Positions 1 to 58,605 of a stretch of DNA of 64,000 nucleotides are shown in pieces. The notes under the pieces were generated by a model. The model was given only the letters and a program-made list of their open reading frames with translations, ran no database searches and was not told the DNA's origin. Each line of letters starts with the position of its first letter. Position 1 is the stretch's first letter. Source of the stretch: a virus; IMG/VR virus record IMGVR_UViG_3300028197_001221, positions 61,942-125,941 of that record; one strand, 5' to 3'. Both the position numbers and the translations under genes were made by a program.

Positions 1-3000
1 GATCAATTCTACTCTTGAAGTCACCCGCCCCAATACCACTTTGAGAGCCGACACCCTTAATGCCTTCAACTCCCACATTAGATCTCTTTAACAATTGTTG
101 TTGTTGAACTTCTGGTGTAAATGACGCACCACCAAACTCAGATTGTATTTTTAAAGCTTCTGTTTCTAAATCAATAGATCTTTGTTTTGTTTCAATTAAT
201 TTCTTCTCTAAATCAAGTCTTGCTTTAGTAAAGGTTAGTAATTTCTTTTGTGCTTCAGCCTGAGCCTTAAGTGCTGGCAACACTTGTTTCATAGCATTGT
301 CGCCCACCTTTTGGATAACTTCTTCAAAAGCAGAGAAGTCGCCTTCAGACACACGTTTCATTTGGCCGTCACTTATATCGCTACCTTCAATTTGTTTCTT
401 CAGACGTTCTACAGATTTCTCGTCAACCCCTTGCTTTGTAAGTTCATCACCTGTCGCTTTTGCAAATGCCGATCTACGCTCGCCCATCGTTCCAGCGGCT
501 TGTCTTCCTGACTTAAACGCTTCCTTCATAGATTTTTTAGTAGCCTCAAATATAGCAGGCATATTTGCTTGTGCAGCATTTACAGCTGTTAAATTTCCTC
601 TAAATTTATCTATCTGTTCACTATTAGCTCCTAAGTTTTCAAGAGTTTTACTGGCATTGTCTAGAGAAGAATTGAATTGATCTGGTGATATACCTTGAGC
701 AGCAGAAGTAATACTAGCTTCTAGTGTTGGAATAGTACTATCTAAAGTATTACTACCAAGCTCTTGGCTTCTGGTATAATTGTCAATAGCAAGAACACCA
801 GCATTAGCAGCAGCTGTAGCAGATTGCATCGCAAGGTTCATAGCAGCAAATGATTCTCGTACTCTGTCTGCTTCTTTTTTAAGATTTGCAAAAGCTTCTT
901 CTTGTATAGAGGGTAGGGCTTTACCGTCTTCATCTTCTCTCGCTTCAAACTGTCCTTGACGCTCCATAGTCTCTCGTGTATCTTTAGACAAGCTATTTTT
1001 ATACTGCTCAAAAGAACCATTAGTATTAGCAGTTTGCCTCATCACGTTGTCAGCAAGAGGCTGTGCGCTTCTAAGGAAATCTTTGTCCACCTTGTCTTGA
1101 TCTGCTTTAATTGCTTCCTGATCTTTTGACAGTCTTTCGTTTCTTTGCCCGCCGGACTCCATACCCATCATACCAGCAACGCCAAATGTAGCAACGCGAG
1201 CAAAGCCTCTTCCAAATCCACTTGCAGGTCCAGACTTATCATTCTCTTCTATACTTTTTACTCTGGCTGAAGACCTATCTGCACTTGCTTGCACTGTTGC
1301 TGCGTCTGGGTCAAGTCTTTTCAGTGCATCTATAGCTGAAAGATTACCCTCTTTAAATTGTCGCATAGCTGCGGTAGCTTCTTTATTTGCATTAGTCAAA
1401 GCTTCTTGTGTTTTTACAGCCTGCGCCCTAGCTCCAGCTTCTAGTTTAATCGTAGTAATACTCTTACCACCCATCCAGTAACCTAGACTCATAGCGGTGG
1501 TTTTAATCATAGGTCCAAGAATAGGAAGCTCACTTCCCAATTTAATTGCAGCTGCCGTTAACCCAGCGAATATAGGGCCAATGCCGGGAATGAATGAGCC
1601 TATAGCAGCAAAACCAATAGCTAGCTTATTAACAGCAGAAGCACCTTCTTTTTCAAAGGCTATAGATTCTGCCGCAGCAGCATTACCGTCTTTAATTGCG
1701 TTGTCAAGCTTTGTAGCCCTATCAGTTAAACTGTCTATAACAGCAGTCAAGGCAAAAATTGAACCAGTAGCTACAATAGCAGGACCAGCCATGCTAGCAA
1801 CAGCTCTAGTTGCAACAACTACACCCTCTGCATTTGCTGCGCCCAGACCAGCTTTTGTACCAACAGCGCGAGCAGCAGTTCCAGCGCGATTAACAAGTTT
1901 ACCACCACCGCCAAGAAACTTACCCATATCTTTAAGATTTAATCCCTTAAACATATCAGCAATAATATTGCCCTTCATCTGGGTTTGCATCAAGGAGAAT
2001 GTGCCTGATAGTGCTAGAGATACGTTTGCTAATTGAGAGAAAGAGCTAATCATGTTAGCGCCAAATCGTTCAAGCGAAGAACTGTTCTCATCAATAACGG
2101 GAGTCATGAAGCTCAGGGCCATACTTGTGGCAATCAAGCCTTCGTTCATAGCACCAAAACCCATAAGACCTTTCTTCCTAACATCAGTATTGTCTTTAAC
2201 GGTCTTGGTTCCCTCGTTAACCGCCTCATTCCAAGATTCAATAGTTGTTGTTATCTGAGTAGAAGCCCCGCTAGGACCACTACTGACAGCTCCAGAGAAA
2301 GTAGCGGGTTTGCTAGCAGTTTTAGGTCCGTAAGTATTTCTGCGAGAAGTAACAATACCACCAGCAGCATACTTGCCAACCTTATTCATTTGATTAAGAT
2401 TGTCATAGCCAATACTTTGTGAAGTTTTCTTGTTTACTACAAACTCGCCGGGAGTCAGCATTGCGGGAACTGTATCTGTTCCAGTGGCAGCACCTCCAGA
2501 AGCAAACTTTTGGAAAGTATATCCCGATTGATCGTTGGCATTAATATCATTTACTATTTTTTTAACAATACTTGCTATAGACTTTGGTGTATTACTTCTT
2601 TTTGCATCTGCTTTTAACATTCCACTAAAAGCAGAAGAATCAGACGCAAACATCTTGGATAAACCTTCTTTCTTAGCCATCAAGTCGCCCTTGAAATCCC
2701 ATCTGGATTTATCCCCTTGGAGTTTAGCTCCAGTAATTGCGTCAATAATACCTTCAAATACAAAACCACTAGTAGTAGCTAATGCGTTAGCGTCTTGAGA
2801 AATTCGATCAGCAGCAGCTTTAAGCATACCATCATTCAAATCAAATTCTGGTCTAACGTTATCAAGAGTTTTATTAACATCTATGGCGGCAGCATTAGTG
2901 GCTGATTTTAACGCTACGCTAGTTTGTTCATTCACCATACTAGCAACGCTTGAATTAATACTTCCAGAAGCTCCGGGGAAGAAACCTGCAATGGAGCCAC

Positions 3001-4918
3001 TGATAGGTATAGTTCTTGCCATTCCTGTATTTTTAATTTTGCTAACCTTGTCTTTACTGTTTGCATAGTCTCTGTCAAAATTTTGAACAGCTGTTTGATC
3101 AGTTTTCTTAGTAGACGCTCTTGTCTCAGCAAGAAATTTCTTTTGATCTGCAACAGTCCCTTTTTGAGACATATCATGTAAGAACTTATTAGTTTTTGTT
3201 CTTCCTAGCATCTTAGATTTTTGTGTTGGACTACTAGCAAAAAAGAAATCCTCGTCAGTTCCGCGATCAGGAGTTTGATATCCTAATTTTTTCAAAACAT
3301 TAAGATTAGTTATTTCTCCTTTGCCTGATATTCCAATTGTCCTGTCTATACCTTGTGATGGTTGTAGGAAAAATCCACCAACTTGATTTGGGTCAACAAC
3401 AATACCACCTTTAGCGTATTTATTGCTATTCATCGCCGCCAAATTAGAAGCGCCCAATTTTCCAACACTACTCTTTTTAATAACAAACTCACCGGGAGTT
3501 AACATGGCTGGAACTGTGTCTGTATTACCAGAGCCGGGAACTATACCTCCACTGTTGAAACCACGAATAGCACCACCGCCTCCACCACCTCCACCGCCCA
3601 TTACTCCACCTAAAAATCCACTAAGACCTTTAGCTAGTCTAATTGTAGCAAGTGTAGCAAGTATGGGAAGAAGTGGCTTGACAGCTTCTGCTATCTTAAT
3701 CATAGCACTAGCTAGGTTTAAAGCAGAGTTAGCCATAGTTTGGAATGTGCTGGTTTCGCTAATACCTCTGATAAGCGCTAAGAACTCTTCTTTAACTTTT
3801 ACAATTCTAACTGCTAACGAAGCTTGAGCTTTCGCAGCATCACCAGCTAAAGAATTAGATCCTTCTTGTGCAACCTTAAGAGCTTCTTGTGCAACGGCGT
3901 ATTCTTTGATCAAAGGCAGGACTTTACCAATCTGCCTAAATCCACCCAACTGTTCAGCAATTTCAACAAACGTAATATCACCTTCTTGAAGCCCAGCTAA
4001 AGCTCTATTAAGTTCTCCAACAGCTCTATATGGGCCAATAAATTTACCTTCTAAATCAACAAGTTCAACGCCAAACTTTTTTAAGTATTCTATTGTTTGA
4101 GGTCTTTGAATACGAGTAAATATAGTACGTAAACCAGTAGCAATACTTTCAGCAGATTCTCTAGTAGTTGATCTAACACTTGTGAACAGCGCGATAAGTT
4201 CATTGAGATCACCGCCAGCCTGTTTAAACACACCACCAGTTCTACGAATAGTAGCGATCAAGTCACCAGACTCAACAGCAAACTGACCAGCGACAGCATT
4301 CAAAGAACCAAGCTGGCCTTCTAATGCTCCAGCTCCTTTTTTAAACTGATTGAAGATAGCAACAGCGCCTTCAGCAGTTTGTGTAATGTTGTCAAAGGTA
4401 GGAGCAAGTTCTGATTTTGCAAGAGCATCTAGTGCGATTTTAGTTTCTCTAGCACTTAAACCAGCCTGAGAGAGTATTCTACTGACACCCAAGATAGACT
4501 CAGACGCAACGCCAAAGCTTGTAGAAAGCCTAGTAATCTCTTGCGTAAGACCTTTTAGATCTTGCATAGACTTTCCAGTAACCTGAGAAATTTTAATAAG
4601 TTCTCGTTCAAAGTCTATAGCAGACCTAACCGCATTACCAAGAGTGTTAGTGAATAAGCTAACAGCCCTAGTAGCCACAGCTAAAGCTGTAAATCTTCTT
4701 AAAGAAACATTAAAACTATTACCTAGTTTTTGAGCTGACTTATCAGCATCAGTTAATGCGCTAGAAAGATTGTTGACTTGTTGCTGTGCCTTTGCCGCAG
4801 TCTGTGCCTGTATATTTACATTAACTCCCTTTAGTTGGCTTTGTATTTGATTTACAACTTGACCAACGTTATTTGGAGCTTGTAATTGCAGTTGTGCAGT
4901 TAGTACAAATTTTGACAT
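1..4918 (-). CDS. Tail tape measure protein (TP901-like N-terminus), truncated at the window edge; carries an internal nuclease-like cargo domain
   Basis: Missing from the ORF track, consistent with no stop inside the window. ATG at 4918 gives MSKFVLTAQLQLQAP...AIDFERELIKISQVTG...LSQAGLSA...RESAESIATGLRTIFTRI. Frame open wherever spot-checked, including position 1 (>1600 aa). Ala/Gly-rich helical composition, downstream of tail tube and chaperone genes. Confidence 0.93.
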   Translation of the reverse strand, partial: MSKFVLTAQLQLQAPNNVGQVVNQIQSQLKGVNVNIQAQTAAKAQQQVNNLSSALTDADKSAQKLGNSFNVSLRRFTALAVATRAVSLFTNTLGNAVRSAIDFERELIKISQVTGKSMQDLKGLTQEITRLSTSFGVASESILGVSRILSQAGLSARETKIALDALAKSELAPTFDNITQTAEGAVAIFNQFKKGAGALEGQLGSLNAVAGQFAVESGDLIATIRRTGGVFKQAGGDLNELIALFTSVRSTTRESAESIATGLRTIFTRIQRPQTIEYLKKFGVELVDLEGKFIGPYRAVGELNRALAGLQEGDITFVEIAEQLGGFRQIGKVLPLIKEYAVAQEALKVAQEGSNSLAGDAAKAQASLAVRIVKVKEEFLALIRGISETSTFQTMANSALNLASAMIKIAEAVKPLLPILATLATIRLAKGLSGFLGGVMGGGGGGGGGAIRGFNSGGIVPGSGNTDTVPAMLTPGEFVIKKSSVGKLGASNLAAMNSNKYAKGGIVVDPNQVGGFFLQPSQGIDRTIGISGKGEITNLNVLKKLGYQTPDRGTDEDFFFASSPTQKSKMLGRTKTNKFLHDMSQKGTVADQKKFLAETRASTKKTDQTAVQNFDRDYANSKDKVSKIKNTGMARTIPISGSIAGFFPGASGSINSSVASMVNEQTSVALKSATNAAAIDVNKTLDNVRPEFDLNDGMLKAAADRISQDANALATTSGFVFEGIIDAITGAKLQGDKSRWDFKGDLMAKKEGLSKMFASDSSAFSGMLKADAKRSNTPKSIASIVKKIVNDINANDQSGYTFQKFASGGAATGTDTVPAMLTPGEFVVNKKTSQSIGYDNLNQMNKVGKYAAGGIVTSRRNTYGPKTASKPATFSGAVSSGPSGASTQITTTIESWNEAVNEGTKTVKDNTDVRKKGLMGFGAMNEGLIATSMALSFMTPVIDENSSSLERFGANMISSFSQLANVSLALSGTFSLMQTQMKGNIIADMFKGLNLKDMGKFLGGGGKLVNRAGTAARAVGTKAGLGAANAEGVVVATRAVASMAGPAIVATGSIFALTAVIDSLTDRATKLDNAIKDGNAAAAESIAFEKEGASAVNKLAIGFAAIGSFIPGIGPIFAGLTAAAIKLGSELPILGPMIKTTAMSLGYWMGGKSITTIKLEAGARAQAVKTQEALTNANKEATAAMRQFKEGNLSAIDALKRLDPDAATVQASADRSSARVKSIEENDKSGPASGFGRGFARVATFGVAGMMGMESGGQRNERLSKDQEAIKADQDKVDKDFLRSAQPLADNVMRQTANTNGSFEQYKNSLSKDTRETMERQGQFEAREDEDGKALPSIQEEAFANLKKEADRVRESFAAMNLAMQSATAAANAGVLAIDNYTRSQELGSNTLDSTIPTLEASITSAAQGISPDQFNSSLDNASKTLENLGANSEQIDKFRGNLTAVNAAQANMPAIFEATKKSMKEAFKSGRQAAGTMGERRSAFAKATGDELTKQGVDEKSVERLKKQIEGSDISDGQMKRVSEGDFSAFEEVIQKVGDNAMKQVLPALKAQAEAQKKLLTFTKARLDLEKKLIETKQRSIDLETEALKIQSEFGGASFTPEVQQQQLLKRSNVGVEGIKGVGSQSGIGAGDFKSRID

Positions 4919-43795: not shown

Positions 43796-46700
43796 CTAAA
43801 ATGGAATAGATACAAATATTGGCCTATACTCCCCATTTATATTTATAGCAATAACAAAGTCATCTTTTTCTATTCTTAAGTATGGATCTCTGTTTGTAAT
43901 AATTACAGCGTCACTATCAACCCATGAACCACTTGCATTTTTAATTTTTCTAGTAATTCTTCCAGTACTAGGATTTGATGGACTTGTGGCAACATTAATC
44001 TGTCCGTCAGCAAAACCTTCCACGTATAGATTGTTTAAGGTTGAGTCGAGAGCATCTAGTTCATCTCTTTGAGTGGCTATTTTATTAGCATTGCTTAGAG
44101 TTCTGCTAGTGTTCTCCGTAGCTGTATCAACAACAACGTTCCAAGAAGATTCAGTAATTGTAGATTCACCAAGTTGAATACTACCTTCTACTTTGAGATT
44201 ACCTTTGGCTTCAAGAACTGTTATTCCACCCGATTTGAATGTAGCTACAGTATCACCCTGAACATTAATATCAAAGTCTTGATTAGAGGAGTTAGAAGAA
44301 TGAGGTATATAATTTAAAGATCCAAAGTGCGGCTCAATCTCTATCTTATTAATTGAATTCGGGAAAGCTGTGCCATTGGTAAGCGTGAGGGAAGAATCTT
44401 TTAAGTAAACCTTATTACAGGTTCCATAGGTAGTTATCATGTCTTTATGAATTTCTACAACATTATCAATTAATATATTTGAATTATGACTTGATGTAAA
44501 ACTAGGATCACCAACATTAGCTCCAATAATAATATTATTACTTCCTAAAGAACTAGCAAATCCAGCTCTATAGCCTATACAAACATTATTCTCAACAGAA
44601 CCTTGGGCAAATACTCCAGCTTCAGATCCTATGAATGTATTTTTATCTCCCGTTGAAATATTTTGAAATGCTTTGTAACCCATCGTTGTATTATCATTAG
44701 ATGAGGAAATTGAAGATCTAGCTAGAGGAGAATCTGTACCAAGTAATGTGTTTTTACGCCCATCAGCAAAAGCTGTAACATCAGTTATAGTTCCAGCGCC
44801 ACCAGCTGTTGTAATTCCGTTCATAGCTAATTCAAAATAATTACCAGACGAATCCACAAAATTTATAACATTAGATTGCTGATCTCTATCTACTGGTCTA
44901 ACAAATATTTTTCCATACCCCTGATCACCGTTAGCATAGGATGAGTTTTCACATATTGACACAGCAGCTTGAGTATCCGATGGATTACCAATAGTCAACA
45001 TGGAATTAGGTTGACCGTTAGCGTATATACCAAATTTATTAGTAGAAGAAGTTGTTGCTTTTATAACATTTGTTCTACTACTTTCACCGTCGTAATACAT
45101 ATCTAAATTAAAATCATCAGCAGAATTATCATAAAATATATCTGCTCCATAGTCCAAACAATTAGATTGAGTAAGCAATTGAAGTGCAGATTTTGTAGTT
45201 GCTGAATTTTCGGCAGTAACTCTTAATATTGCATCTCCAGTAGCTCTTACATTAAGTATGGTATCAGGTGTCATGTATTGACCGTTAGTAAAATCGTTTA
45301 TTCCGACAGTACCATCGTTACCATGATTCATAACCATTAAAGTTCTGTTATTACCTTCTTTTTCTCCATGTATAATAAATCTGTCATATGTTTGACCGGC
45401 TTCTGGATTTAAAACGTTGTTGTCAACAGAGTCTACAGCCCAATAGCTTAATGTAAACTTGCCAGTACCTACTATGTCAAAATGTTGATTAATTCTTTGA
45501 GAAGTATATTGTGAGCCTAAATATCTTACGTCATAATCTGAATTATTAACAGCATATGGTGCGATGAATTCCACATGTTTATAGCCACTTATTTGTGGAA
45601 CAATGTTGCCCTCATCTCCATCTTCGTATAGTAGTTTTATAGAATCTTCATCTCCAAAACATATACTGTACGTTGGAGCGTGATCAGAATAACCAAGACC
45701 CAAGGAGGGAGCATCAGAGTTAAAATAACGATCTCTTAAAAATACTCCGATACCAGTTCTATCGTTTAACATGGCAACTGTATCTGAACTCAATAATCTG
45801 TCTGTTTTAATATGACAACCATTAGCAGTAGTTAAACTGACATTACTATACCAACTAGATCTAGTATACGGAGTGTCTACAGCTGGGTGTTTAATACTAT
45901 GGTCTTGAGGTCTGAATTGTAAATAATAATCTCTAGTATATCCAGCGGCAGAATCAGAAGAGTATATGTTTAAGCCAGCTCCAGCTAACTCTTCATCATT
46001 TAAATATCCAACAGGAGGTTCAATATTATCATCAGGATGATAATTTTCTTGAAGACTTCTAACACCACCACCATCTACAGTATCTATGTACCCCTTAGAA
46101 GCTAAGTATATTGTCTTGTGCAAATAGTGTGATTGTTCTATTGCTTCAAATTTATTAAACTTACTTAAGCCAGTTACATTTATATTATGAAAATTAGCAC
46201 TCAAAAATGGGTATTCTGCACTTCCCATCTTGCTATGCAGAGCAACTTGTGGAATTATATTTTCAGAAACTGATATACCCTGATTAACTGTTAACGATCC
46301 ATCAGTATCTATGCTTCCACTTACTGTAAGGTTTTCATCAACAATTAAAGACTTAGCTAAATGAAGTCCTCCAGTTGTATCTAAGTCGCCTTCAAAATTA
46401 GCAGCACCAGTGATATCAAAAGAGTCAGACAAACTATTATATCTAATATAGTTATTGTCTCCAAAGAACACAGAGTCATTAAGGAATAAATTTTTAAATT
46501 TATAAGTAAAACTTCCAAGGCTATACGTATAGTCTGAAGTTTGATCAGTGTGTATACTGCCACCCACTTGTAGAGCTGCCCCAGTATGTAAATCAGAAAC
46601 AGCTATACCAACTCTTAGTCTTGTGCTATTTAAATCGCCTTGTATTAGAGGAACAAGACCTTCACCGTCTGAGTTGCTACATATATAATCTTTATCAACA

Positions 46701-47233
46701 TTGTGAGAAGCTATAAAAAGTTTACTACTATCATCTTTATCAATGTAATATCCAGCGCCATGACCAATCGCTATATTTAGATTACCAGTTTTATTATTAT
46801 GTATACTGTAATTTCCAACACCAACATTTCCATACCCAACAGTATTAGCTGCAACAGCATTAAAACCTAAACCAACATTATTGTGACCATGAATATTGCA
46901 ATTAAGAGATTGTGAACCTAAAGCTGTGTTGGCATATCCTGAAAAGTTTTTATTTAAGCTAGAGTATCCAACAGCTGTATTGTCAACGCTGGTATAGCCA
47001 TCTATACCTCTGCGTAAATTTTCTAGAGTAAAATCGCCAAACCGTGTAGTGCGACTGCCAGAAGCTGTGTCTACGTTTGTAGACTTTAAGGGTTGAAACT
47101 CTGTTAAGAGATGTAGAGAGTCTATTAAATCTAATAGATTATGACGTATATCATTTGGGCTAATTGAGCCTTTAGAATTATCAGATATCTCTGCTTTTAT
47201 ATTATCTACAAGATTTGGCTTAGATATAATCAT
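43796..47233 (-). CDS. Fibre protein with YadA/Hep_Hag-like NxxxG repeats
   Basis: Two blocks of NTAVG/NTALG/NVGLG/NIAIG repeats; coiled coil near the C-terminus. Confidence 0.75.
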   Translation of the reverse strand: MIISKPNLVDNIKAEISDNSKGSISPNDIRHNLLDLIDSLHLLTEFQPLKSTNVDTASGSRTTRFGDFTLENLRRGIDGYTSVDNTAVGYSSLNKNFSGYANTALGSQSLNCNIHGHNNVGLGFNAVAANTVGYGNVGVGNYSIHNNKTGNLNIAIGHGAGYYIDKDDSSKLFIASHNVDKDYICSNSDGEGLVPLIQGDLNSTRLRVGIAVSDLHTGAALQVGGSIHTDQTSDYTYSLGSFTYKFKNLFLNDSVFFGDNNYIRYNSLSDSFDITGAANFEGDLDTTGGLHLAKSLIVDENLTVSGSIDTDGSLTVNQGISVSENIIPQVALHSKMGSAEYPFLSANFHNINVTGLSKFNKFEAIEQSHYLHKTIYLASKGYIDTVDGGGVRSLQENYHPDDNIEPPVGYLNDEELAGAGLNIYSSDSAAGYTRDYYLQFRPQDHSIKHPAVDTPYTRSSWYSNVSLTTANGCHIKTDRLLSSDTVAMLNDRTGIGVFLRDRYFNSDAPSLGLGYSDHAPTYSICFGDEDSIKLLYEDGDEGNIVPQISGYKHVEFIAPYAVNNSDYDVRYLGSQYTSQRINQHFDIVGTGKFTLSYWAVDSVDNNVLNPEAGQTYDRFIIHGEKEGNNRTLMVMNHGNDGTVGINDFTNGQYMTPDTILNVRATGDAILRVTAENSATTKSALQLLTQSNCLDYGADIFYDNSADDFNLDMYYDGESSRTNVIKATTSSTNKFGIYANGQPNSMLTIGNPSDTQAAVSICENSSYANGDQGYGKIFVRPVDRDQQSNVINFVDSSGNYFELAMNGITTAGGAGTITDVTAFADGRKNTLLGTDSPLARSSISSSNDNTTMGYKAFQNISTGDKNTFIGSEAGVFAQGSVENNVCIGYRAGFASSLGSNNIIIGANVGDPSFTSSHNSNILIDNVVEIHKDMITTYGTCNKVYLKDSSLTLTNGTAFPNSINKIEIEPHFGSLNYIPHSSNSSNQDFDINVQGDTVATFKSGGITVLEAKGNLKVEGSIQLGESTITESSWNVVVDTATENTSRTLSNANKIATQRDELDALDSTLNNLYVEGFADGQINVATSPSNPSTGRITRKIKNASGSWVDSDAVIITNRDPYLRIEKDDFVIAININGEYRPIFVSIPF

Positions 47234-47266
47234 TATAAAGCCTTTGAAGGTGTAAGGTGACTAGGA

Positions 47267-48031
47267 TTATGTTAAGCTAATTTCTAGAGATCGTGTGTCA
47301 AATTTAATTTGATCTCCAGTATAAATAAATCTAGGGTTTCTAAGTTGAGCATACATTAAAAGATTACCCTCACCAAAGTTAGAACTATCTAAAATTGCTA
47401 TGCCAGAAACAAATCCCCAATCTCTAAATGCAGGTTCAAAAATAATTTGATTAGCATTTTTTATAAATCCATTACCTTCGTACAAAAGACTTCCACCGTC
47501 TTGAACTACTCCAGATGAAACACCCTGTCTAGGAGAATAAAAACTAACCCCTGAATATTCATCTTCAAACTTAAAAATATAATTCTGATCGTTACTGTCT
47601 AGTAATTTAGCTAAATTCTTAGCTGTAGTTGTTTGGTCAACGTCAGAGTCATTTGCTGGAAATAATGGATAGTAGTAGCCACTGCCAACGCTTTCTGCAA
47701 AAACATTACTATCGCCTTCAGCAAATCCAACAGAAGATGATTCTGGAATATATACTTGATAGGTAGTATTGTCATCTCTTCCAACAGCAAACCATCGGCT
47801 GTCTCCAACCTCAGACGGGCTTTGCAAACTCTGCCTTCCATAGTTAGTCGTGAAAGAAGATTCTCCGACAGTAATAGACGCAGGGATTTCAGGTATTGTA
47901 GATCCAGATTGATTGTCTTTGGCAACGTCAGACGTTAATGCAATACTTATATTAGTTGGTTTAGAAAAATTAGATTCTCTGAATATATGATTCAATATCT
48001 TTGTCTCAAGATAATCCGAAATAGCAGCCAT
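47267..48031 (-). CDS. Virion structural (fibre-anchor-like) protein
   Basis: SDYLETKILNHIFR...IAL...IIF.PA..DWG.V...AILDS...GNLL pattern; directly follows the major capsid gene. Confidence 0.65.
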   Translation of the reverse strand: MAAISDYLETKILNHIFRESNFSKPTNISIALTSDVAKDNQSGSTIPEIPASITVGESSFTTNYGRQSLQSPSEVGDSRWFAVGRDDNTTYQVYIPESSSVGFAEGDSNVFAESVGSGYYYPLFPANDSDVDQTTTAKNLAKLLDSNDQNYIFKFEDEYSGVSFYSPRQGVSSGVVQDGGSLLYEGNGFIKNANQIIFEPAFRDWGFVSGIAILDSSNFGEGNLLMYAQLRNPRFIYTGDQIKFDTRSLEISLT

Positions 48032-48079
48032 ATTTTTTCTCCCGTATATGTCCTACGTAGGTGGGGGTTTCTATTGATA

Positions 48080-48086
48080 TATACAC
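48080..48086 (-). promoter_or_regulatory. Putative late promoter GTGTATA abutting the capsid terminator
   Basis: TTTT-GTGTATA-TATCAAT. Confidence 0.65.
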
Positions 48087-48116
48087 AAAAAGCTGCCTCC
48101 GGTAACGAAGGCAGCT
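48087..48116 (-). terminator. Intrinsic terminator after the major capsid gene
   Basis: AGCTGCCTTCG-TTAC-CGGAGGCAGCT followed by a T run on the minus strand. Confidence 0.85.
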
Positions 48117-48145
48117 CAAATGTGCAGACATTATAGTTAATAGAA

Positions 48146-49174
48146 CTAGAATGATCCAAGAATGATTCTTCTATTATCTAGAACGCCAAAGCCAAGCTCT
48201 GACCAGCCATAATAGCCAGCTCTCTGCTGACGGTGCAACGTAGGATCTTCGTAGACCTGAAGCTGCTCCTTGACGGGCATTACAAAGCTGTCGTTGCTGG
48301 ACTGATCCAGACCTACGACAAGCTCAACGTCATTAGCAGAATGTCCACCACCAGATTGGGCGACATTTCCACTAAGATCAGAAGTGAAGAACGACTGATA
48401 CTCTTGACCTTCGCCAAGCTCATCAAGATCGTGAAGATTAACACCAAAGATGCGTGTGATAGGCGCACCATCTTCAGATGACGTATAAATTTCACGACGA
48501 GTTACTTCATCTACTTGATCGAGACCCCAGTTACGAACGTCTTCCAGAGCTTCTGGAGAAACATACATATCTGTAAGTCTTCCTCTACCAACAGAGGCGC
48601 TATTACCACCGGAATTACGGCGCATAACAGTCTGCATGAGGGAAACAAGTCTCTTACTGAAGAGACCAGATGTTGCATCGCCATCATAAACGAGAATGTT
48701 ACGGTCAACACCAGCTGCGAGCAGCGTGTGCCATCCGTCATCATTCATCTTCTTTACGAAGCCAGCTTCCATGACTTGCATGGCGCGACCAACAACATCC
48801 CAACGTGCTTCTTTAGCATATCGTAGAAGATAATCTACAGATGATGCAATGTTGTACGTTGGAATCATGACGTAATCGCTTTCAACCGCACGTTCTGGAA
48901 TTCTACCATGACCGGGATTGGTATAAGCGACATGTTCGCCTTCTAGACCGGGACTAATAAGATCGAGCGGAAACTCTGTAGTAGAGCCAGCTTCGACATT
49001 GATAGTCTCGAAAATATTTCCGAGGATGTTGCCAACAAGGACACCCTTACGGAGTGGAAGCTCAAGAGCTTTTGCAAACTCTCTTTGTGCAGCTTGCGCT
49101 ACGTTTACATCTGCATCCCCTGATTTACGGAGGAGACTGATGAATTCATCACTAGGTCTTTCATTAATAGGCAT
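48146..49174 (-). CDS. Major capsid protein (HK97 fold)
   Basis: 342 aa, strong RBS, follows protease/scaffold and decoration genes, followed by a terminator; C-terminal GYYGWSELGFGVLD. Confidence 0.88.
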   Translation of the reverse strand: MPINERPSDEFISLLRKSGDADVNVAQAAQREFAKALELPLRKGVLVGNILGNIFETINVEAGSTTEFPLDLISPGLEGEHVAYTNPGHGRIPERAVESDYVMIPTYNIASSVDYLLRYAKEARWDVVGRAMQVMEAGFVKKMNDDGWHTLLAAGVDRNILVYDGDATSGLFSKRLVSLMQTVMRRNSGGNSASVGRGRLTDMYVSPEALEDVRNWGLDQVDEVTRREIYTSSEDGAPITRIFGVNLHDLDELGEGQEYQSFFTSDLSGNVAQSGGGHSANDVELVVGLDQSSNDSFVMPVKEQLQVYEDPTLHRQQRAGYYGWSELGFGVLDNRRIILGSF

Positions 49175-49200
49175 ATTATTTTTCTCCTTTAGTATGTTAT

Positions 49201-49653
49201 TCAGGGTAGGTTAACTTCGACTTTGGCATAACCGTCAGCGTCTTCTGCTGAAAGGAAAGCACCAACGACATTTGTTCCACTTGTGGCAACGTTGCCAGCA
49301 GTGGTTTCACACTGATAAGCTACATCTCCAGCAGCTGGGGTTCCAGTGACATTACTAGTTACAACGTAACCCTTGCGGAGTACAGTAACTTTACCACCCT
49401 TTTGTACTTCATCCTTATATTGATTAAGATGAGTACGAGTAAGGTCTTTATCAACTACATCATTCAACAAGATGCCAAGCACCTTTGCCGAACTAGAGGC
49501 TGATTTTGCGCAAAGATTTGCGCCCTGATCCATAGCTGCGCCAGTACCAGCTGTACCGCCGTGACATACAACACAACCGCGAGTAGTCGCAGCAGCATTG
49601 TAGAAAAAGCTAATGTCAGTTTGAAGTTCATATCTATCTGATTTTAGAGCCAT
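49201..49653 (-). CDS. Capsid decoration/cement protein
   Basis: 150 aa, GKVTVLRKGYVVT...GAFLS...DGYAKVEVNLP, located between scaffold and capsid genes. Confidence 0.75.
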   Translation of the reverse strand: MALKSDRYELQTDISFFYNAAATTRGCVVCHGGTAGTGAAMDQGANLCAKSASSSAKVLGILLNDVVDKDLTRTHLNQYKDEVQKGGKVTVLRKGYVVTSNVTGTPAAGDVAYQCETTAGNVATSGTNVVGAFLSAEDADGYAKVEVNLP

Positions 49654-49671
49654 GTTTGTATCTCCTTTAAA

Positions 49672-51162
49672 TTACTTACTGAGTACGTTGTTTTCGAGCC
49701 ATTCAGCGACACTCGCTCTAGTGGCTTCTAGTTCTTCATTTTCATCAGAAGCGTCTACCAGAGTTGCCTCAGTGGTTTCTACTTCTTCAAGAGCTTCTTC
49801 AGCAGCTACTTCAGCTTCAGCTTCTTCAGCTTCTTCTGCTTTAACTGGTGGTTTAGCCTTGGCTTTTTTCTCGTCTTCTTCCGTAGGCTTTGCCTTGGCT
49901 TCGTCTTCTTCGTCCTTCTTGACTTTGCCAACTTTCTTTTCCATCTTCGTCATTGCTGAGATAATGGTATCAAAAGTAGCGTCATCAAACTCTTCGTAAG
50001 AAGCAAGTGTTTCTTCAGCTTCTTCAGCCTCAAAACCAAGATCAAGAAGTGCAGCCTTGCGAGCTTCAGTCTTCTTTTCCTTCTTCATCTTCTTAAGCTC
50101 TTCCATTCTTTCTTTAAACTCATTGTCTTTGGCTTCCAATGATTCTTGAAGTTCCGTAATGGATGCTTCTTTTTCAGCGACTGTAACTTCAAGAGCTGCA
50201 ATTGCTTCATCTTTAGCTGCCAACGTTTCTTCAAGCTTGGCAACAGCTGCACCTTGCTCTTTAGCTGAAGTAGCTTCGATTTCTTCTCGAAGTGCTACAT
50301 TTTCTTCTTTAGCAGATGCTAACTCACTTTTCATTTCAGCAAGTTGCTTCTCTAAGAGATTGGTATCTGACATGTCATTATCTCCTTCAGGGAAACTAGT
50401 TAAAATTGATGTGTTAGAATTTAGAGAGAAAGCTCTGCTAGAATCAAGTATTACACTTCTTGGATTCGCTGGTTTAGATACTAAACCTTTACCAGAAAAA
50501 GAAATGTCTCTTAATGATCGTCCCAGTTTGTAGCCTTCATATTCTCCAGTACCACCGTATGCTCGTAAATGCTTAGTTAAGAATGCAGAACCCTCATTAC
50601 GTTCGAGAAGTTTTGCACCACCACTTTCATCTAACAAGGCGTAGTCAAAACCAGCAAACAAACATTCCATAGAAACAAACCATTTGCCTTCTTCGATTTC
50701 AGCAATAATTTGATTCATGCGCTGTCTGTTTTCTGGATCTGTCCAGCTATTATATAACACAGCCTCGGTGATAATGTCGAAATCATCTGGCTGAGTATCA
50801 TCGTCTACCACGCTGCCGTTTTTATCGACAACGTAACTTCCTGTAATATGCCCAATGATATCATTCTCATTGTGCATAAAATTGAATTGTTTATCTTCTG
50901 GTGTGTCTCTGGCATTCCAAGTAGCTTGAGTTTGAAACACATCGTCATTTTTATTCCAACCTGTTGAAACCAATACTGATTTCAAGTAGAATAAATCTAT
51001 TTGTTTTGGGTTTCCACTATCTGCTTTAACTTTATTAGCAAAAGCTAGCGATTCATCGTTAGCGGTTTCGCAAATAGTAGCGGGCATACAATAGGCTATA
51101 CTGGCGCTAGATTGCACCAGTTCTGCAATATTGTCTTTTATTTCTTGTTTATATATTTTCAT
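49672..51162 (-). CDS. Prohead protease fused to an acidic coiled-coil scaffold
   Basis: WNKNDDVF, NFMH..IIGHI, VSMEC and GLVSKPANP protease-like motifs; Glu/Ala/Lys-rich C-terminal half. Confidence 0.8.
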   Translation of the reverse strand: MKIYKQEIKDNIAELVQSSASIAYCMPATICETANDESLAFANKVKADSGNPKQIDLFYLKSVLVSTGWNKNDDVFQTQATWNARDTPEDKQFNFMHNENDIIGHITGSYVVDKNGSVVDDDTQPDDFDIITEAVLYNSWTDPENRQRMNQIIAEIEEGKWFVSMECLFAGFDYALLDESGGAKLLERNEGSAFLTKHLRAYGGTGEYEGYKLGRSLRDISFSGKGLVSKPANPRSVILDSSRAFSLNSNTSILTSFPEGDNDMSDTNLLEKQLAEMKSELASAKEENVALREEIEATSAKEQGAAVAKLEETLAAKDEAIAALEVTVAEKEASITELQESLEAKDNEFKERMEELKKMKKEKKTEARKAALLDLGFEAEEAEETLASYEEFDDATFDTIISAMTKMEKKVGKVKKDEEDEAKAKPTEEDEKKAKAKPPVKAEEAEEAEAEVAAEEALEEVETTEATLVDASDENEELEATRASVAEWLENNVLSK

Positions 51163-51181
51163 ACGTTGCCCTCGTAAACAT

Positions 51182-51188
51182 TATACAC
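51182..51188 (-). promoter_or_regulatory. Putative late promoter GTGTATA
   Basis: Intergenic TTTT-GTGTATA-ATGTT upstream of the protease/capsid genes. Confidence 0.7.
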
Positions 51189-51210
51189 AAAATATTAAAA
51201 AAAATGTGTA

Positions 51211-53241
51211 TTAGCCCGTTTTAGTATCTACGAACAATCCTATAACGTATGTTCTGTAATCGTCTATACTCATGCTATCAAGATTGACGCTATTATCCAG
51301 CATAATCTTTTTTAACTCTCTGTTTGTTTTTACGCCAGATTTAAGCTTTTTAAATATAGTTGTGGGGTTAACACTTTCATGAGTGTCAAAATTAGTGAAC
51401 ACATCTAGTTTAATTGATTCTAGGTCTTTAACCTGAGCCTTTGTTAGCTGTCTTAAGTTCTTCTTATTATGAGAATTTAGAAAGGCGTTATTTACGGTTT
51501 CAGAAATTTTAGACCATGAATTTTCTGCCCACACCAAAGTTTCAGCAAGTCCCGGTTGTGATTTTGGTTTTTCAACACGCTTCTTTCTTGGTCCATTATC
51601 CAGACTATTTGGTGGTCTGCCATCATCTTTAATATCTGTATTGGTATTACGTTTAACAGATTTTTGTTTTTCTTTTTCTTGCTTTAAATTAATCTGTCCT
51701 TGCTTATCCATTTTCTCTATATCTTGATCATGGTTAGGATTATGATAAGGACTTGCTTTTGGAGGACCAGCTTCGTCTCTCTTAGAAAGCTCTCTTTTAA
51801 TTCTAATGTTTTCTATCTGAGGTATTTCCTTGAATCTCTCAAGTAATGTTTCATGACTAATGATATCTCTGTCAGCAAGTTGTATAAGGAGATTCTTTTC
51901 AGCAGCTTCATCAGAAAGAGTCATTTGATCAAATTGTATATGAGCCTTATATCTAAAGCCCATAGACTTTCGTACAATTTCTAATTCTTTTTCCCAAAAC
52001 TTAGTAAGCAAGTCTCTTCCGTACTGAAGTCTTTCTAGTAATGTTTTAAGTGATATAAAGTTGTTTGTAAACCCACCGCCATTGCTAGCCATACCAGTAA
52101 GCGTTGGCGGTACACCAAGGCCAGCGTAGATGCTATTCAATACGGAGGTATATTTCTCGGAACCTAAGAATTTATATACCTCACTACTAGATTCTTGAAA
52201 CGAAAGTTCTGGCCCCCAGACTAGTTCCATAGTGCCACCGCCAACGTTACTGGATAGAATGTCTCGTAATTTATTAATGGCTGCTTTATTAGGTAGTATC
52301 TTATGATCCAAATTACCTAAAGTCCATAATCTAATATTTGATATAGCTCCATCTAATGCAGACATGTCAGCGAGCCTCATTTTTTCAAGCATGACAATAT
52401 CATCTAATATAGCATATATCATGGGATTAGCCCACTGTCTCCAATCATCTTTTTTGTAGTAAGATATTGTAAGACGTTCTGGGTCTAGTGGTATATCTTT
52501 TTGTCCTTTTAATATAGCTTGTTTTACATTTACGGGTAAAGTTTCGATTACATGATTAGGAAGATCTCCAGACCTGAATTTGTCGAAAAATGAGTTCGTA
52601 GTTATTGTATAGTTTTGCCTACCCATAAATAAAGATAGTTGACCTTCCTTCATCTTAACGGTCAGAGGGTTAAAGAAATTGTACCTCCAAGGTATCTGGT
52701 TCTCTGGCGCAGAAGGGACTTCAACTTTAATGTCAGAAGACAAGGCTTTCATATAACTCTTTAACTGAGGGGTTATATTTGCATAACTTCTATAAATGAT
52801 TACATTTCCAGTTTTATAAAGGTTATTAAGAAATCTTTCTGATCTTTCTTTACCATTTATGTTTTTAAACCATTGTTGGTAGAACTTCTCAACACTTTTA
52901 TCTTTATGTACAATTTGAATTCCTTGACTACCAAAGTCTCCCATGAGATCAATAATATTACGAATGATGCCAACTTTGTCGTATGCATCCATGCACATTT
53001 TAATTATTCTTCTTTGCTGATTAGGCACAGCTTCGTCGGGCCTGAACGCATAATAGTCCTTAGAAGTAAATCCCGGCTTAACAGATCGGTTAGGTTCAAT
53101 GTCAATAAAATGTCTGTAGTGATTGCCTTGACTTTTGCTTAGACCACTATAAGCCTGAACATTGTCAGAGAATTGAGACATAGCTTTAGCTTTGCCTTCG
53201 TCGTCACCTTCTTGCCAAGTTATCATATCTTCTTCACTCAT
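51211..53241 (-). CDS. Portal protein
   Basis: 676 aa between large terminase and protease; IIRNIIDLM, GLGVPPTL and ISHETLLE motifs. Confidence 0.85.
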   Translation of the reverse strand: MSEEDMITWQEGDDEGKAKAMSQFSDNVQAYSGLSKSQGNHYRHFIDIEPNRSVKPGFTSKDYYAFRPDEAVPNQQRRIIKMCMDAYDKVGIIRNIIDLMGDFGSQGIQIVHKDKSVEKFYQQWFKNINGKERSERFLNNLYKTGNVIIYRSYANITPQLKSYMKALSSDIKVEVPSAPENQIPWRYNFFNPLTVKMKEGQLSLFMGRQNYTITTNSFFDKFRSGDLPNHVIETLPVNVKQAILKGQKDIPLDPERLTISYYKKDDWRQWANPMIYAILDDIVMLEKMRLADMSALDGAISNIRLWTLGNLDHKILPNKAAINKLRDILSSNVGGGTMELVWGPELSFQESSSEVYKFLGSEKYTSVLNSIYAGLGVPPTLTGMASNGGGFTNNFISLKTLLERLQYGRDLLTKFWEKELEIVRKSMGFRYKAHIQFDQMTLSDEAAEKNLLIQLADRDIISHETLLERFKEIPQIENIRIKRELSKRDEAGPPKASPYHNPNHDQDIEKMDKQGQINLKQEKEKQKSVKRNTNTDIKDDGRPPNSLDNGPRKKRVEKPKSQPGLAETLVWAENSWSKISETVNNAFLNSHNKKNLRQLTKAQVKDLESIKLDVFTNFDTHESVNPTTIFKKLKSGVKTNRELKKIMLDNSVNLDSMSIDDYRTYVIGLFVDTKTG

Positions 53242-53279
53242 TTTTACCTCAATCGGAATGTAATTGGATTGTATATGTA

Positions 53280-55259: not shown

Positions 55260-55888
55260 TCTTCTAATACCCTATCTGCGAAACCGTAGTGAACAGCTTC
55301 TTGTGAATTAATGTACCAATCGCCTGACTTTAATTTTCTTGTTAAGTATGTTTTAACTTTCTCTATGTCTGGATTCTTACCATACTTTTCTTGGAAGTAC
55401 GGTCCTTGACTGCAACTCTTTGCATAAATATCAATCATAACATCACAAATATGTTTTTCATATTTAGCTAAATTCTGAACAGTTAGGTATTCGCCAATAG
55501 CTGCACTAGATCCATAATGAGACATAAAATAAGTATTGGGTGTAATCAATCTTAAATCCGCAGCTTGAAATATTATACTACTCATAGACTCCGCTTGACC
55601 ATAAGCAATAATAGTAACAAAAGATCTAGACATTGATATAGCGTCATAAATAGCCATGCCATCTGACCATTCTCCCCCAACGCTTTGCATATGTATAGTA
55701 ATGGGTTTATCTGATTTAATATCTAATGCTCTCATATTTTTTAAGAACGTATTAGACATCTTATACTCTACGCCGGGATTGTCTTCATCATTAGCTCCAT
55801 AATGATTATGCAGAAATATTTCTCTAGTATCTATATTAGCGCAATAATTATGAAGATCGTAAAGTAGATCTTTATCGTAATTATTCAT
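55241..55888 (-). CDS. clpP: ClpP-family peptidase
   Basis: ITIHMQSVGG, GQAESMS (Ser), FMSHYG (His), GDWYI (Asp), EAVHYGFAD. Confidence 0.88.
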   Translation of the reverse strand: MNNYDKDLLYDLHNYCANIDTREIFLHNHYGANDEDNPGVEYKMSNTFLKNMRALDIKSDKPITIHMQSVGGEWSDGMAIYDAISMSRSFVTIIAYGQAESMSSIIFQAADLRLITPNTYFMSHYGSSAAIGEYLTVQNLAKYEKHICDVMIDIYAKSCSQGPYFQEKYGKNPDIEKVKTYLTRKLKSGDWYINSQEAVHYGFADRVLEDWQKLN

Positions 55889-56388
55889 TTCTTTCTCCCT
55901 ATAGTATACATTTCGTTAATCCTCTTAAATATACTACTAACCGCTAAGAATGCTGTATGTTTGTCTCCGCAGAAAAGAACATGAACATCATTATACAATT
56001 CAAATTCTATTAAACATTTTAACATGTATCTTCCAGTTATTTTTACAGAAGCTTTATTCTTAATTGGTATTCTAGTTTCTTTAGGAAACTTTATTAATTC
56101 TTCTAAAGAAAATTCAAGTATCATATATTTATGAGGGAAAGGCTCCATCCTTTCTATCTCTTTAAGAAACGCTGTCTTTTTAGAACCAAGGTTTTGGGCT
56201 AACTCTTCAACGCAACCCTTTCTTTCGACGCATATTTTATCCTCTAATCCTTCTATTGAATAATCACCAGTATCTAGTTTATGCTCTATCATTCCAGCGC
56301 AAGTATTAAACTTACTAAAGTAATATCCGTCTTGCTCACGGGTATCTTTTATTACTGTAAAATCAGGAGCTTGTTTATATTTACTCAT
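55885..56388 (-). CDS. ERCC4/XPF-Mus81-family nuclease
   Basis: IKDTREQ...LDTGDYSI...VERK signature. Confidence 0.88.
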   Translation of the reverse strand: MSKYKQAPDFTVIKDTREQDGYYFSKFNTCAGMIEHKLDTGDYSIEGLEDKICVERKGCVEELAQNLGSKKTAFLKEIERMEPFPHKYMILEFSLEELIKFPKETRIPIKNKASVKITGRYMLKCLIEFELYNDVHVLFCGDKHTAFLAVSSIFKRINEMYTIGRKK

Positions 56389-58604: not shown

Positions 58605-58605
58605 C

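What the first reader, a model, noticed from the sequence alone, without database searches (positions are those of the whole stretch)
2355..3560. Tape measure protein carries a PD-(D/E)XK nuclease-like cargo between two copies of an AxGG/DTVPAMLTPGEFV module
Seen by hand translation. Module 1 (about 3405-3560) reads GFNSGG..DTVPAMLTPGEFVIKK...MNSNKYAKGG. Module 2 (about 2355-2510) reads KFASGG..DTVPAMLTPGEFVVNKK...MNKVGKYAAGG. The two DTVPAMLTPGEFV cores are identical in protein but differ at synonymous sites. Between them lies an insert of about 300 aa ending GFVFEGII...SRWDF...LKADAKRS. Known: a helix Glu, a strand Asp and a (D/E)xK motif in this order is the restriction-endonuclease-fold active site, and tape measure proteins are ejected into the host at infection. 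Inference: this tape measure protein is a polyprotein that delivers a nuclease-like effector with the genome. The four [FY]xxGG sites may be proteolytic release points, and the flanking repeats could act as cassette borders for cargo swapping.
Basis: partly seen in the sequence, partly recalled or inferred. Interest (0 to 1): 0.8.

Follow-up and report, generated by a model that had tools for sequence, protein, structure and literature searches.

The report
Conserved nuclease-like domain inside tape measure
A giant tail tape measure protein of an uncultured marine phage holds, between two copies of a motif also found in phage lambda's tape measure, a conserved small domain whose invariant Glu, Asp and Asp-x-Lys residues look like a restriction-nuclease active site, although its fold could not be firmly matched to one.

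Summary
Window 2357-3571 (minus strand) encodes aa 450-854 of a 2,646-aa TP901/lambda-type tape measure protein (TMP). Two diverged copies of a ~54-aa module flank a 298-aa insert.

The module is an old TMP motif. It occurs 2-7 times in relatives, twice in mycobacteriophage Douge's TMP, and once in lambda gpH (733-782), beside the Gly-rich region where gpH is cleaved.

This insert is not swapped cargo. Its last ~100 aa are a core domain found in the first bracket of 63 of 66 independently retrieved relatives. Across 155 distinct sequences, G718 and E722 never vary, D741 and K773 nearly never, and position 771 is always D or E.

Best reading (0.45): a very divergent PD-(D/E)XK-like domain fixed in the TMP.

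The cassette idea holds only for relatives, where extra module-bounded segments carry ADP-ribosyltransferase-like and unknown domains. Cleavage at the GG sites is untested.

The parts
2..4918 (-). First 1,639 codons of the 2,646-aa tape measure protein gene. The gene continues past the window start, to contig 58919.
   Evidence: ORF list and translation; PF10145 and PHROG TMP families
3983..4543 (-). PhageMin_Tail (TP901-type TMP core) domain, aa 126-312
   Evidence: Pfam PF10145, E 2.7e-22, 80.1 bits against a cut-off of 33.2
3572..3724 (-). Hydrophobic stretch followed by a poly-Gly run (aa 399-449), directly before module 1. Lambda gpH has the same layout before its module.
   Evidence: Read from the translations; layout compared by eye only
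3404..3571 (-). Module 1 (aa 450-505): FNSGG, then DTVPAMLTPGEFV, then MN..YAKGG
   Evidence: Module HMM, E 6e-30; predicted as a beta-hairpin plus two short helices; homologous to lambda gpH 733-782 and to two sites in Douge gp16
2834..3403 (-). Variable N-terminal part of the insert (aa 506-695). It starts with a conserved strand motif (GGFFLxP).
   Evidence: An HMM of aa 506-640 hits 84 of 201 relatives, against 138 to 170 of 201 for the C-terminal part. First-bracket length ranges from 152 to 1000 aa.
2519..2833 (-). Conserved core domain (aa 696-800) with the G-x3-E / D / (D/E)-x-K / K constellation
   Evidence: Alignment A3 of 50 sequences; AlphaFold pLDDT 89.0, pTM 0.74; 547 cluster representatives at E<=1e-3
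2753..2755 (-). Glu722 codon, mid-helix
   Evidence: Glu in 155 of 155 distinct homologues; helix 15-34 of the model; codon checked
2696..2698 (-). Asp741 codon, at the start of a short strand
   Evidence: 152 Asp and 3 Glu of 155; invariant in A3
2600..2608 (-). Asp771-Ala-Lys773, the (D/E)xK motif
   Evidence: Position 771 is 130 Asp and 25 Glu of 155; Lys773 is 154 of 155. It lies on strand 320-326 of the 405-aa model.
2558..2560 (-). Lys787 codon, on the following helix
   Evidence: 150 of 155
2357..2518 (-). Module 2 (aa 801-854): FASGG, then DTVPAMLTPGEFV, then MNKVGKYAAGG
   Evidence: Module HMM, E 3.5e-28. Position-specific type: 131 of 137 held-out second modules score better with the second-module profile.
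1538..1825 (-). Hydrophobic, membrane-like segments after module 2 (aa 1032-1127)
   Evidence: Kyte-Doolittle windows of 1.5 or more

Best explanation
Shown: the stretch encodes aa 450-854 of a genuine 2,646-aa tape measure protein of an uncultured marine phage. Two old, position-specific copies of a ~54-aa TMP motif bracket a 298-aa segment. The same motif occurs once in lambda gpH (733-782). The C-terminal ~100 aa of the segment form a compact, confidently modelled domain, which so far has been found only in this TMP lineage.

Inferred: the domain is a very divergent PD-(D/E)XK (restriction-endonuclease-like) domain. Glu722 on a helix, Asp741 on a strand, and Asp771 and Lys773 on the next strand would bind a divalent metal and act on, or at least grip, nucleic acid. 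Because it is part of the TMP, it would leave the tail with the TMP, ahead of the DNA.

It is a fixed core part of the protein, not exchangeable cargo. The modules are conserved punctuation. They most likely mark domain boundaries and serve as docking or processing elements, as in lambda, where the homologous region is the part of gpH that is cleaved.
For: TMP identity: PF10145 and PHROG TMP families.

Module homology: a profile of 57 modules hits Douge gp16 twice (E 6.9e-8) and lambda gpH 733-782 (E 0.004) among PDB sequences. A local HMM scores gpH at 1.7e-10. At E<=1 the module matches 17 PHROG families, 11 of them annotated TMP, mostly near the C-terminal end of the profile.

Active-site-like conservation: in 155 distinct homologues about 20-50% identical, G718 is 155/155, E722 155/155, D741 152 D plus 3 E, position 771 130 D plus 25 E, K773 154/155 and K787 150/155. 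A position that varies only between D and E is what a metal ligand would show.

Secondary-structure context fits the family's pattern: E on helix 15-34, D just before strand 47-48, and DxK at strand 74-75 in the 111-aa model and on strand 320-326 in the 405-aa model. Confidence is pLDDT 89.0 and 77.4.

In the VIA-align search of 48,161 chains with the 111-aa model, I count 21 of the 50 listed rows as PD-(D/E)XK nucleases. They include BsaWI, Cfr10I, Bse634I, PspGI, NgoMIV, AgeI, NucS, two VRR_NUC entries, five bunyavirus or arenavirus cap-snatching endonucleases, a Cas4-family protein and Dna2. They align over 64-95 residues. I classed the rows from the entry titles and from memory.

Four relatives carry a compact form at the same place, of the type G.(A/K)FE, about 18-25 aa, D, about 8-12 aa, (V/F/S)E(I/A)K. 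This has the classical spacing. It was seen by regex in 3 of 318 TMPs and by eye in L018.

Core status: present in the first bracket of 63 of 66 relatives that were retrieved through N-terminal patterns only.

Against: The modelled sheet is tiny. Only two 2-residue strands appear in the isolated domain, so the alpha-beta-beta-beta-alpha-beta core is not evident.

No sequence link to any known family was found. Pfam at E<=10, NCBIfam, PDB sequences and the ESM Atlas gave nothing, and the Mrr_cat model finds nothing in the genome at E<=10.

Three relatives read D-x-T where the Lys should be (L020, L054, P0079; by eye).

The domain lies between hydrophobic segments. It may end up in the envelope rather than the cytoplasm, and an active nuclease next to the phage's own DNA end would need control.

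I could not measure 3D clustering of the four residues.
Confidence: 0.45

Rival explanations
1. The conserved domain is not a nuclease relative. It is a TMP-specific structural or assembly domain, or an enzyme of another kind such as a cell-wall hydrolase. In that case the invariant Glu, Asp and Lys residues form salt bridges, bind a metal for folding, or contact a tail or host-envelope partner.
Against: Four charged residues staying invariant at ~20-50% identity, with only D/E exchange at one of them, is more typical of catalysis than of packing. No lysozyme or transglycosylase appears among the 50 VIA rows, while 21 nucleases do. The Glu is mid-helix and an invariant Lys follows two residues after the second acid, which is not the lysozyme pattern as I recall it. 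No peptidoglycan-hydrolase family hit was found.
Confidence: 0.35
2. One reading: the TMP is a polyprotein, the [FY]AxGG sites at both ends of each module are cleaved, the nuclease-like piece is released as a free effector, and the modules are recombination borders for swapping cargo.
For: The GG pairs are invariant: G457/G458, G504, G808/G809 and G853/G854 in 20 full-length relatives. The lambda homologue of the module (gpH 733-782) lies within the C-terminal piece (about residues 690-853) that is cut off from gpH, in its Gly-rich region. The site and the protease are unknown (passages of PMC12617516). T5 pb2 is cleaved to free an enzymatic C-terminal piece (passages of 10.1101/2022.09.20.507954). 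In relatives, extra domains end exactly where an extra module begins. P0117 has an ADP-ribosyltransferase domain at 923-1135 between modules at 815-865 and 1144-1196. An unknown domain in 11 of 318 TMPs and another in 31 of 318 abut modules in the same way. The 119 non-core brackets fall into 59 sequence clusters. The short form ..QKFAxGG also separates domains without the hairpin (by eye).
Against: This particular insert is not exchanged. The core domain is in the first bracket of 63 of 66 relatives. The two modules are position-specific lineages (138 of 147 and 131 of 137 held-out copies) and share only 92 of 159 bases, so they are not being homogenised by recombination. In 150 sampled pairs of related TMPs the 400 aa after module 2 are as divergent as the insert (median identity 0.23 and 0.29, against 0.83 for the N-terminus). 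Only 2 of the 108 pairs with insert identity below 0.35 kept the region after module 2 at 0.6 or more. No protease domain was found in the TMP. No cleavage data exist for this phage.
Confidence: 0.15

Closest known systems
Phage lambda tape measure protein gpH (and TP901-type TMPs, Pfam PF10145)
   Same: Both have a hydrophobic stretch, then a Gly-rich run, then the ~50-aa motif FAxGG..(V/I)(P/H)xGEFV..G.GNL..YAxGG. In gpH it is at 733-782; here it is at aa 450-505 and 801-854. The PF10145 core is present.
   Different: Lambda has one copy near its C-terminus and no domain inserted after it. Here the motif is duplicated around a 298-aa insert in the N-terminal third of a protein three times longer.
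Mycobacteriophage Douge TMP gp16 (PDB 8zdo)
   Same: It has two copies of the same module in one TMP, at 964-1025 and 1411-1467, about 385 aa apart.
   Different: I did not examine what lies between Douge's copies. Only residues 1658-1699 of gp16 are resolved in the structure (passages of PMC13033339). It belongs to a different phage lineage.
TMPs with built-in enzymes, such as T5 pb2 (C-terminal metallopeptidase piece pb2C released by cleavage)
   Same: An enzymatic-looking domain is carried inside the TMP and leaves the tail with it. In T5, processing separates it from the rest.
   Different: The known cases are cell-wall hydrolases. T5 pb2 has no detectable copy of the module. Here the candidate chemistry is nuclease-like, and no cleavage is shown.
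PD-(D/E)XK (restriction-endonuclease-like) nucleases
   Same: The order and secondary-structure context of Glu (helix), Asp (strand) and (D/E)xK (strand) agree. These nucleases are enriched among the weak structural neighbours.
   Different: No significant fold or profile match was found. About 29 residues with two helices lie between Asp and (D/E)xK. The modelled beta-sheet is very small.
Polyvalent proteins of phages and conjugative elements (Iyer et al. 2017, PMC5512222)
   Same: These are large proteins delivered with the DNA that string together effector domains, including ADP-ribosyltransferases. Some relatives of this TMP carry such domains.
   Different: That paper never uses the term 'tape measure' (0 occurrences). 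Its hallmark processing peptidase domain was not found here, and the window's TMP has only one candidate effector domain.

Membership tests
TP901-type tail tape measure protein (Pfam PF10145 PhageMin_Tail) | Match to the family model above its curated cut-off | tested here: met
   80.1 bits against a cut-off of 33.2, E 2.7e-22, aa 126-312; phrog_4211 and phrog_28 'tail length tape measure protein'
TP901-type tail tape measure protein (Pfam PF10145 PhageMin_Tail) | Long protein with hydrophobic segments, encoded in the virion structural gene block | tested here: met
   2,646 aa, on the same strand as terminase, major head protein and tail-fibre-like genes; hydrophobic windows at aa 1032-1127
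Lambda gpH-type C-proximal TMP motif (unnamed) | Sequence homology to gpH 733-782 | tested here: met
   Profile of 57 modules against PDB sequences: gpH E 0.004, Douge gp16 E 6.9e-8; local HMM against gpH 1.7e-10
PD-(D/E)XK nuclease superfamily | Conserved acidic and Lys residues in the order E ... D ... (D/E)xK | tested here: met
   E722 155/155, D741 152 D plus 3 E, position 771 D or E 155/155, K773 154/155 distinct homologues; invariant in A3
PD-(D/E)XK nuclease superfamily | Glu on the first core helix, Asp and (D/E)xK on adjacent beta-strands | tested here: met
   DSSP of the two AlphaFold models. The strands are very short in the isolated domain.
PD-(D/E)XK nuclease superfamily | Alpha-beta-beta-beta-alpha-beta core fold superposable on solved members | tested here: inconclusive
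PD-(D/E)XK nuclease superfamily | Profile match to a curated family of the clan | tested here: not met
   Pfam scan of the insert at E<=10 lists only TctA. The Mrr_cat model finds nothing in the genome at E<=10. No hit in NCBIfam or in PDB sequence profiles. Many true members of this clan are undetectable by sequence, so this lowers the claim but does not exclude it.
PD-(D/E)XK nuclease superfamily | Catalytic residues clustered around one metal site in 3D | not testable with these tools
PD-(D/E)XK nuclease superfamily | Divalent-metal-dependent cleavage of nucleic acid | not testable with these tools
   Needs a bench assay
Polyvalent proteins (Iyer et al. 2017) | Several effector domains plus a processing peptidase domain in one injected polypeptide | tested here: not met
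   Pfam finds only PF10145 in the window's TMP. Some relatives do carry an ADP-ribosyltransferase domain.

The most novel reading that the evidence does not exclude
The ~54-aa module is a self-contained processing signal shared by lambda gpH and by giant marine-phage TMPs. Cleavage at its FAxGG/YAxGG edges would turn these TMPs into true polyproteins. At DNA entry they would release a PD-(D/E)XK nuclease, and in relatives ADP-ribosyltransferases and unknown domains. If true, this would also identify the determinant of the 50-year-old, still unmapped gpH to gpH* cleavage.
Probability: 0.12. Interest if true: 0.85.

Novelty: new variant of a known kind. Interest (0 to 1): 0.6.

Why it matters
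TMPs with built-in cell-wall enzymes are known. A lineage-wide, nuclease-like active-site constellation inside a TMP is not something I could find in print. I ran three full-text searches: 'tape measure protein' with 'nuclease domain'/'ejected', with 'ADP-ribosyltransferase', and with 'restriction endonuclease-like'. None returned a paper on it.

The lineage is large. 478 viral contigs and 547 clusters at 50% identity carry it, many from genomes of 100-170 kb in metagenomes. So the domain is probably important for infection by an abundant group of uncultured phages.

The link between the repeated module and lambda gpH 733-782 gives a concrete, cheap test in lambda of what the motif does. This includes whether it directs the unexplained gpH cleavage.

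The module-bounded extra domains in relatives suggest a simple grammar for finding proteins that phages deliver with their DNA.

Tried and rejected
- Pfam, NCBIfam and PHROGs on the insert gave nothing usable. Hits were TctA at E 0.017 and phrog_4378 (unknown function) at E 0.0015.
- PDB sequence searches with the insert, with the core-domain profile and with a compact variant from L072 gave no meaningful hit.
- Foldseek against PDB with both models and against BFVD with the core model gave nothing at E<=0.001.
- The ESM Atlas gave no usable hit.
- The Mrr_cat family search of the genome found no match. It also returned no loci from control genomes, so I could not build profiles of known nuclease families for hhalign.
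- Complex prediction with three copies of the module gave no answer (score 0.01, controls not run). This is not evidence either way.
- Lysozyme-like reading of the Glu...Asp spacing: rejected, because the Glu is mid-helix, an invariant (D/E)xK follows, and no lysozyme appears among the structural rows.
- S24/S26 peptidase-like reading of DTVPAMLTPGEFV, a resemblance I recalled: no Pfam hit at E<=10 and the module is too short. Dropped.
- T5 pb2 has no copy of the module.
The mapped T5 cleavage site is in a supplementary figure, for which only the legend is held, so I could not compare its sequence context.
Full report
**What is there**

The window is the last 64 kb of a 125,941-bp viral record estimated 81% complete. 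The finding lies in a minus-strand ORF that runs off the window start. In the whole record the ORF is 2,646 aa, at contig 58919-66859. A 4,540-aa gene follows it directly.

Pfam places a PhageMin_Tail (TP901-type tape measure) domain at aa 126-312, with E 2.7e-22. PHROG families annotated 'tail length tape measure protein' match the first 480 aa. On the same strand lie a terminase, head proteins and tail-fibre-like genes. No cultured phage is close. The best tblastn matches of the whole protein in 50,697 phage records cover at most 14% of it.

**The observation**

It is correct.

- DTVPAMLTPGEFV occurs at aa 467-479 and 815-827. The coding DNA differs at 7 of 39 bases, all synonymous.
- The full modules are aa 450-505 and 801-854. 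They share 30 of 53 residues and 92 of 159 bases.
- A profile made from relatives scores them at 6e-30 and 3.5e-28 and finds no third copy.
- The 298-aa insert and its GFVFEGII, SRWDF and LKADAKRS strings are as described.

**What the module is**

It is not peculiar to this gene.

- A search with aa 440-870 against 5.8 billion proteins gave 4,224 hits at E<=1e-3 among the 8,000 candidates scored. Nearly all of the 120 listed are 1.5-4.4-kaa proteins with PF10145.
- In a pooled set of 318 distinct TMPs have the module. The copy numbers are: 26 have 1 copy, 91 have 2, 122 have 3, 31 have 4, 21 have 5, 16 have 6 and 1 has 7. Some of these proteins are truncated.
- tblastn of module 2 alone finds it in 156 phage records. 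Most hits lie under genes annotated as tape measure, in Gordonia, Mycobacterium, Streptomyces, Nodularia, Stenotrophomonas, Acinetobacter and other phages. It also occurs in a few cyanomyovirus proteins and in Streptomyces-phage 'endolysins'.
- Against PHROGs it matches 17 families at E<=1. Eleven are annotated TMP, and the match is mostly near the C-terminal end of the profile.
- A profile of 57 modules searched against all PDB sequences hits two TMPs. One is mycobacteriophage Douge gp16, with two copies at 964-1025 and 1411-1467 (E 6.9e-8). The other is an 853-aa 'tape measure protein' of entries 8iyk, 8iyl and 8k35, at residues 733-782 (E 0.004).
- I fetched lambda gene H. It is 853 aa, and a local search confirms the match (1.7e-10): FATGG...GIVHRGEFV...GVGNLYRLMRGYATGG. 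As here, a hydrophobic stretch and a Gly-rich run come before it.
- T5 pb2 has no copy.

According to passages of PMC12617516:

- The C-terminal piece, gpHC, is taken as residues ~690-853, and its part 690-817 is unresolved.
- The exact site and the catalyst are unknown.

So the module's lambda homologue sits inside the processed region. That is a precedent, not a demonstration.

**Age of the two copies**

The two copies are old and position-specific. Profiles were trained on first and second modules from half of the proteins. On the other half they classify 138 of 147 first modules and 131 of 137 second modules correctly.

In 150 pairs sampled from 714 pairs whose N-termini are 80-97% identical, the median identities are:

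| Segment | Median identity |
|---|---|
| N-terminus | 0.83 |
| Module 1 | 0.81 |
| Insert | 0.29 |
| Module 2 | 0.84 |
| Next 400 aa | 0.23 |

. The modules are therefore conserved islands in a fast-changing protein. The insert is no more divergent than what follows it.

**The insert**

phmmer with the window's insert hits the first-bracket segment of 106 of 121 relatives. The best-kept part is its last ~160 aa.

An HMM of aa 700-800 finds one copy in 143 of 201 TMPs, and in 170 of 201 after four rounds.

The cleanest sample is the 80 loci fetched through N-terminal peptide patterns only. Of 66 distinct TMPs with at least two modules, 63 have the domain in the first bracket. Of the other three:

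- L033 has it after module 2.
- L018 shows a compact form of the motif (by eye).
- L024 shows none.

A profile search of 1.84 billion cluster representatives finds 547 at E<=1e-3. The 150 listed are giant TMPs with the domain around aa 600-1300, or short proteins. Most of the short proteins are gene fragments: of 24 under 700 aa, 15 carry a flanking module and others start mid-sequence.

So the domain is a fixed part of this TMP lineage and is not known outside it.

**Is it nuclease-like?**

Conservation says the domain has a functional site. Among 155 distinct sequences:

| Position | Residues |
|---|---|
| G718 | 155/155 |
| E722 | 155/155 |
| D741 | 152 D, 3 E |
| 771 | 130 D, 25 E |
| K773 | 154/155 |
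| K787 | 150/155 |

The surrounding positions vary freely. In a 50-sequence alignment with identities down to 16%, the only invariant columns are G, E, D and K.

AlphaFold with 45 relatives models aa 450-854 at pLDDT 77.4, with blocks of 84-97 over aa 640-800. The domain alone (aa 696-806, 50 relatives) reaches pLDDT 89.0 and pTM 0.74. The key residues sit as follows:

- E722 is in the middle of a 20-residue helix.
- D741 is at the start of a short strand.
- D771 and K773 are on the next strand.
- K787 is on the following helix.

The fold test is weak.

- Foldseek finds nothing.
- I classed the rows from the entry titles and from memory, and I have no control model. So I treat the enrichment as suggestive only.
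- No curated family matches by sequence.

Two further observations point the same way. Four relatives carry, at the same place, a compact version with classical spacing, such as G.AFE, ~25 aa, LDG, ~10 aa, VEIKS (L018). This suggests that the common form has two helices inserted between the Asp and the (D/E)xK. Against this, three relatives read DxT in place of DxK (by eye).

**Cassette idea**

For this insert the idea fails, as shown above. For the family it has substance.

- The first bracket varies from 152 to 1000 aa.
- The 119 brackets of 800 aa or less without a detected core domain fall into 59 sequence clusters. The largest cluster turned out to hold diverged core domains.
- P0117 carries an ADP-ribosyltransferase exoenzyme domain (PF03496, E 5.9e-10, above the cut-off) at 923-1135, between modules at 815-865 and 1144-1196.
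- P0038 and L055 have weaker matches to the same family, below the cut-off.
- Two unknown domains, found in 11 and in 31 of 318 TMPs, usually end within a few residues of the next module.

Each added domain thus tends to come with a module at its C-terminal edge. A shortened ..QKFAxGG also separates domains (by eye).

The concept nearest in print is the 'polyvalent protein' of Iyer et al. I read passages of PMC5512222. The term 'tape measure' occurs 0 times there.

**How it most likely works**

Shown:

- It is a TMP.
- It contains a duplicated lambda-type motif.
- Between the copies lies a conserved, well-folded domain with an invariant acidic and Lys constellation.

Established knowledge, from passages:

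- TMPs fill the tail tube.
- They are expelled before the DNA and help form the channel across the envelope.
- The TMPs of lambda and T5 are proteolytically processed.

Inferred:

- The domain binds a metal and acts on, or holds, nucleic acid.
- Because it travels with the TMP, it would be at the entry site when the genome arrives. There it could attack host or competing DNA, or bind the phage's own leading end.
- The modules act as domain punctuation, with a docking or processing role.

I put 0.45 on the nuclease-like reading, 0.35 on a non-nuclease conserved domain, and 0.15 on the full release-by-cleavage and swapping model for this gene.

**Limits**

- Supplements are closed, and the T5 cleavage site is shown only in a supplementary figure.
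- The pooled set of 318 TMPs is partly selected with the insert itself. For that reason the frequency claim rests on the 66 loci.

Noticed in passing
Outside the window: contig 45291-58913 (minus strand), = L085:2295-15914: The gene directly downstream of the TMP encodes a 4,540-aa protein. Its only Pfam match is an FG-GAP repeat near aa 4180. In 49 of the 80 related loci the longest plus-strand ORF is about 2,000-3,350 aa with no module, apparently a huge ORF after the TMP that is often cut by the 10-kb flank.
   Followed up: partly
window 19269-47233 (minus strand): A run of very large ORFs (1,224, 1,087, 1,032, 2,772, 1,106 and 1,145 aa) lies between the head genes and the tail genes. None of them was scanned; two smaller ORFs in the same stretch were. 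Such an unusually large structural block in a genome of perhaps 150 kb deserves its own look.
   Followed up: no
Relatives P0117 (aa 923-1135), P0038 (aa 881-1037), L055:8029-9486: ADP-ribosyltransferase exoenzyme-like domains (PF03496) sit inside tape measure proteins of related phages and are bounded by modules. P0117 is above the Pfam cut-off and the other two are below it.
   Followed up: partly
Relatives P0115 (aa 596-639), L072 TMP (aa 600-635), P0088 (aa 1021-1059), L018 first bracket: A compact G.(A/K)FE ... D ... (V/F/S)E(I/A)K motif with classical restriction-endonuclease spacing occupies the first bracket. In L072 it precedes a normal core domain. No Pfam or PDB hit.
   Followed up: partly
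Relative P0088, aa 528-662: A Walker-A-containing segment (YGASGAGKTTYA) in the first bracket has a weak match to nSTAND3, a STAND NTPase family (E 0.0019, below the cut-off).
   Followed up: no
Relatives: 31 of 318 TMPs, e.g. L058 TMP aa 771-940: A recurrent ~170-aa domain of unknown function (GIENAPLVDDILQ...) is inserted between the core domain and module 2. A second unknown domain (..ATSGYGPKLYD..) occurs in 11 of 318. Pfam has no match for either.
   Followed up: partly
window 3572-3598 (aa 441-449); also aa 1907-1923, outside the window: Runs of 8-9 consecutive glycines lie directly before module 1. A second Gly-rich run (GGAGGGGGGGDGGGGG) lies far downstream. Most relatives have a third module near the C-terminus, which this TMP lacks.
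   Followed up: partly
L040 / L066 and other pairs of relatives: P0040 and the L066 TMP are 94% identical in the N-terminus and 60% identical after module 2. Their inserts are only 21% identical and differ in length (296 and 234 aa). This is a candidate for a real replacement of the insert.
   Followed up: no
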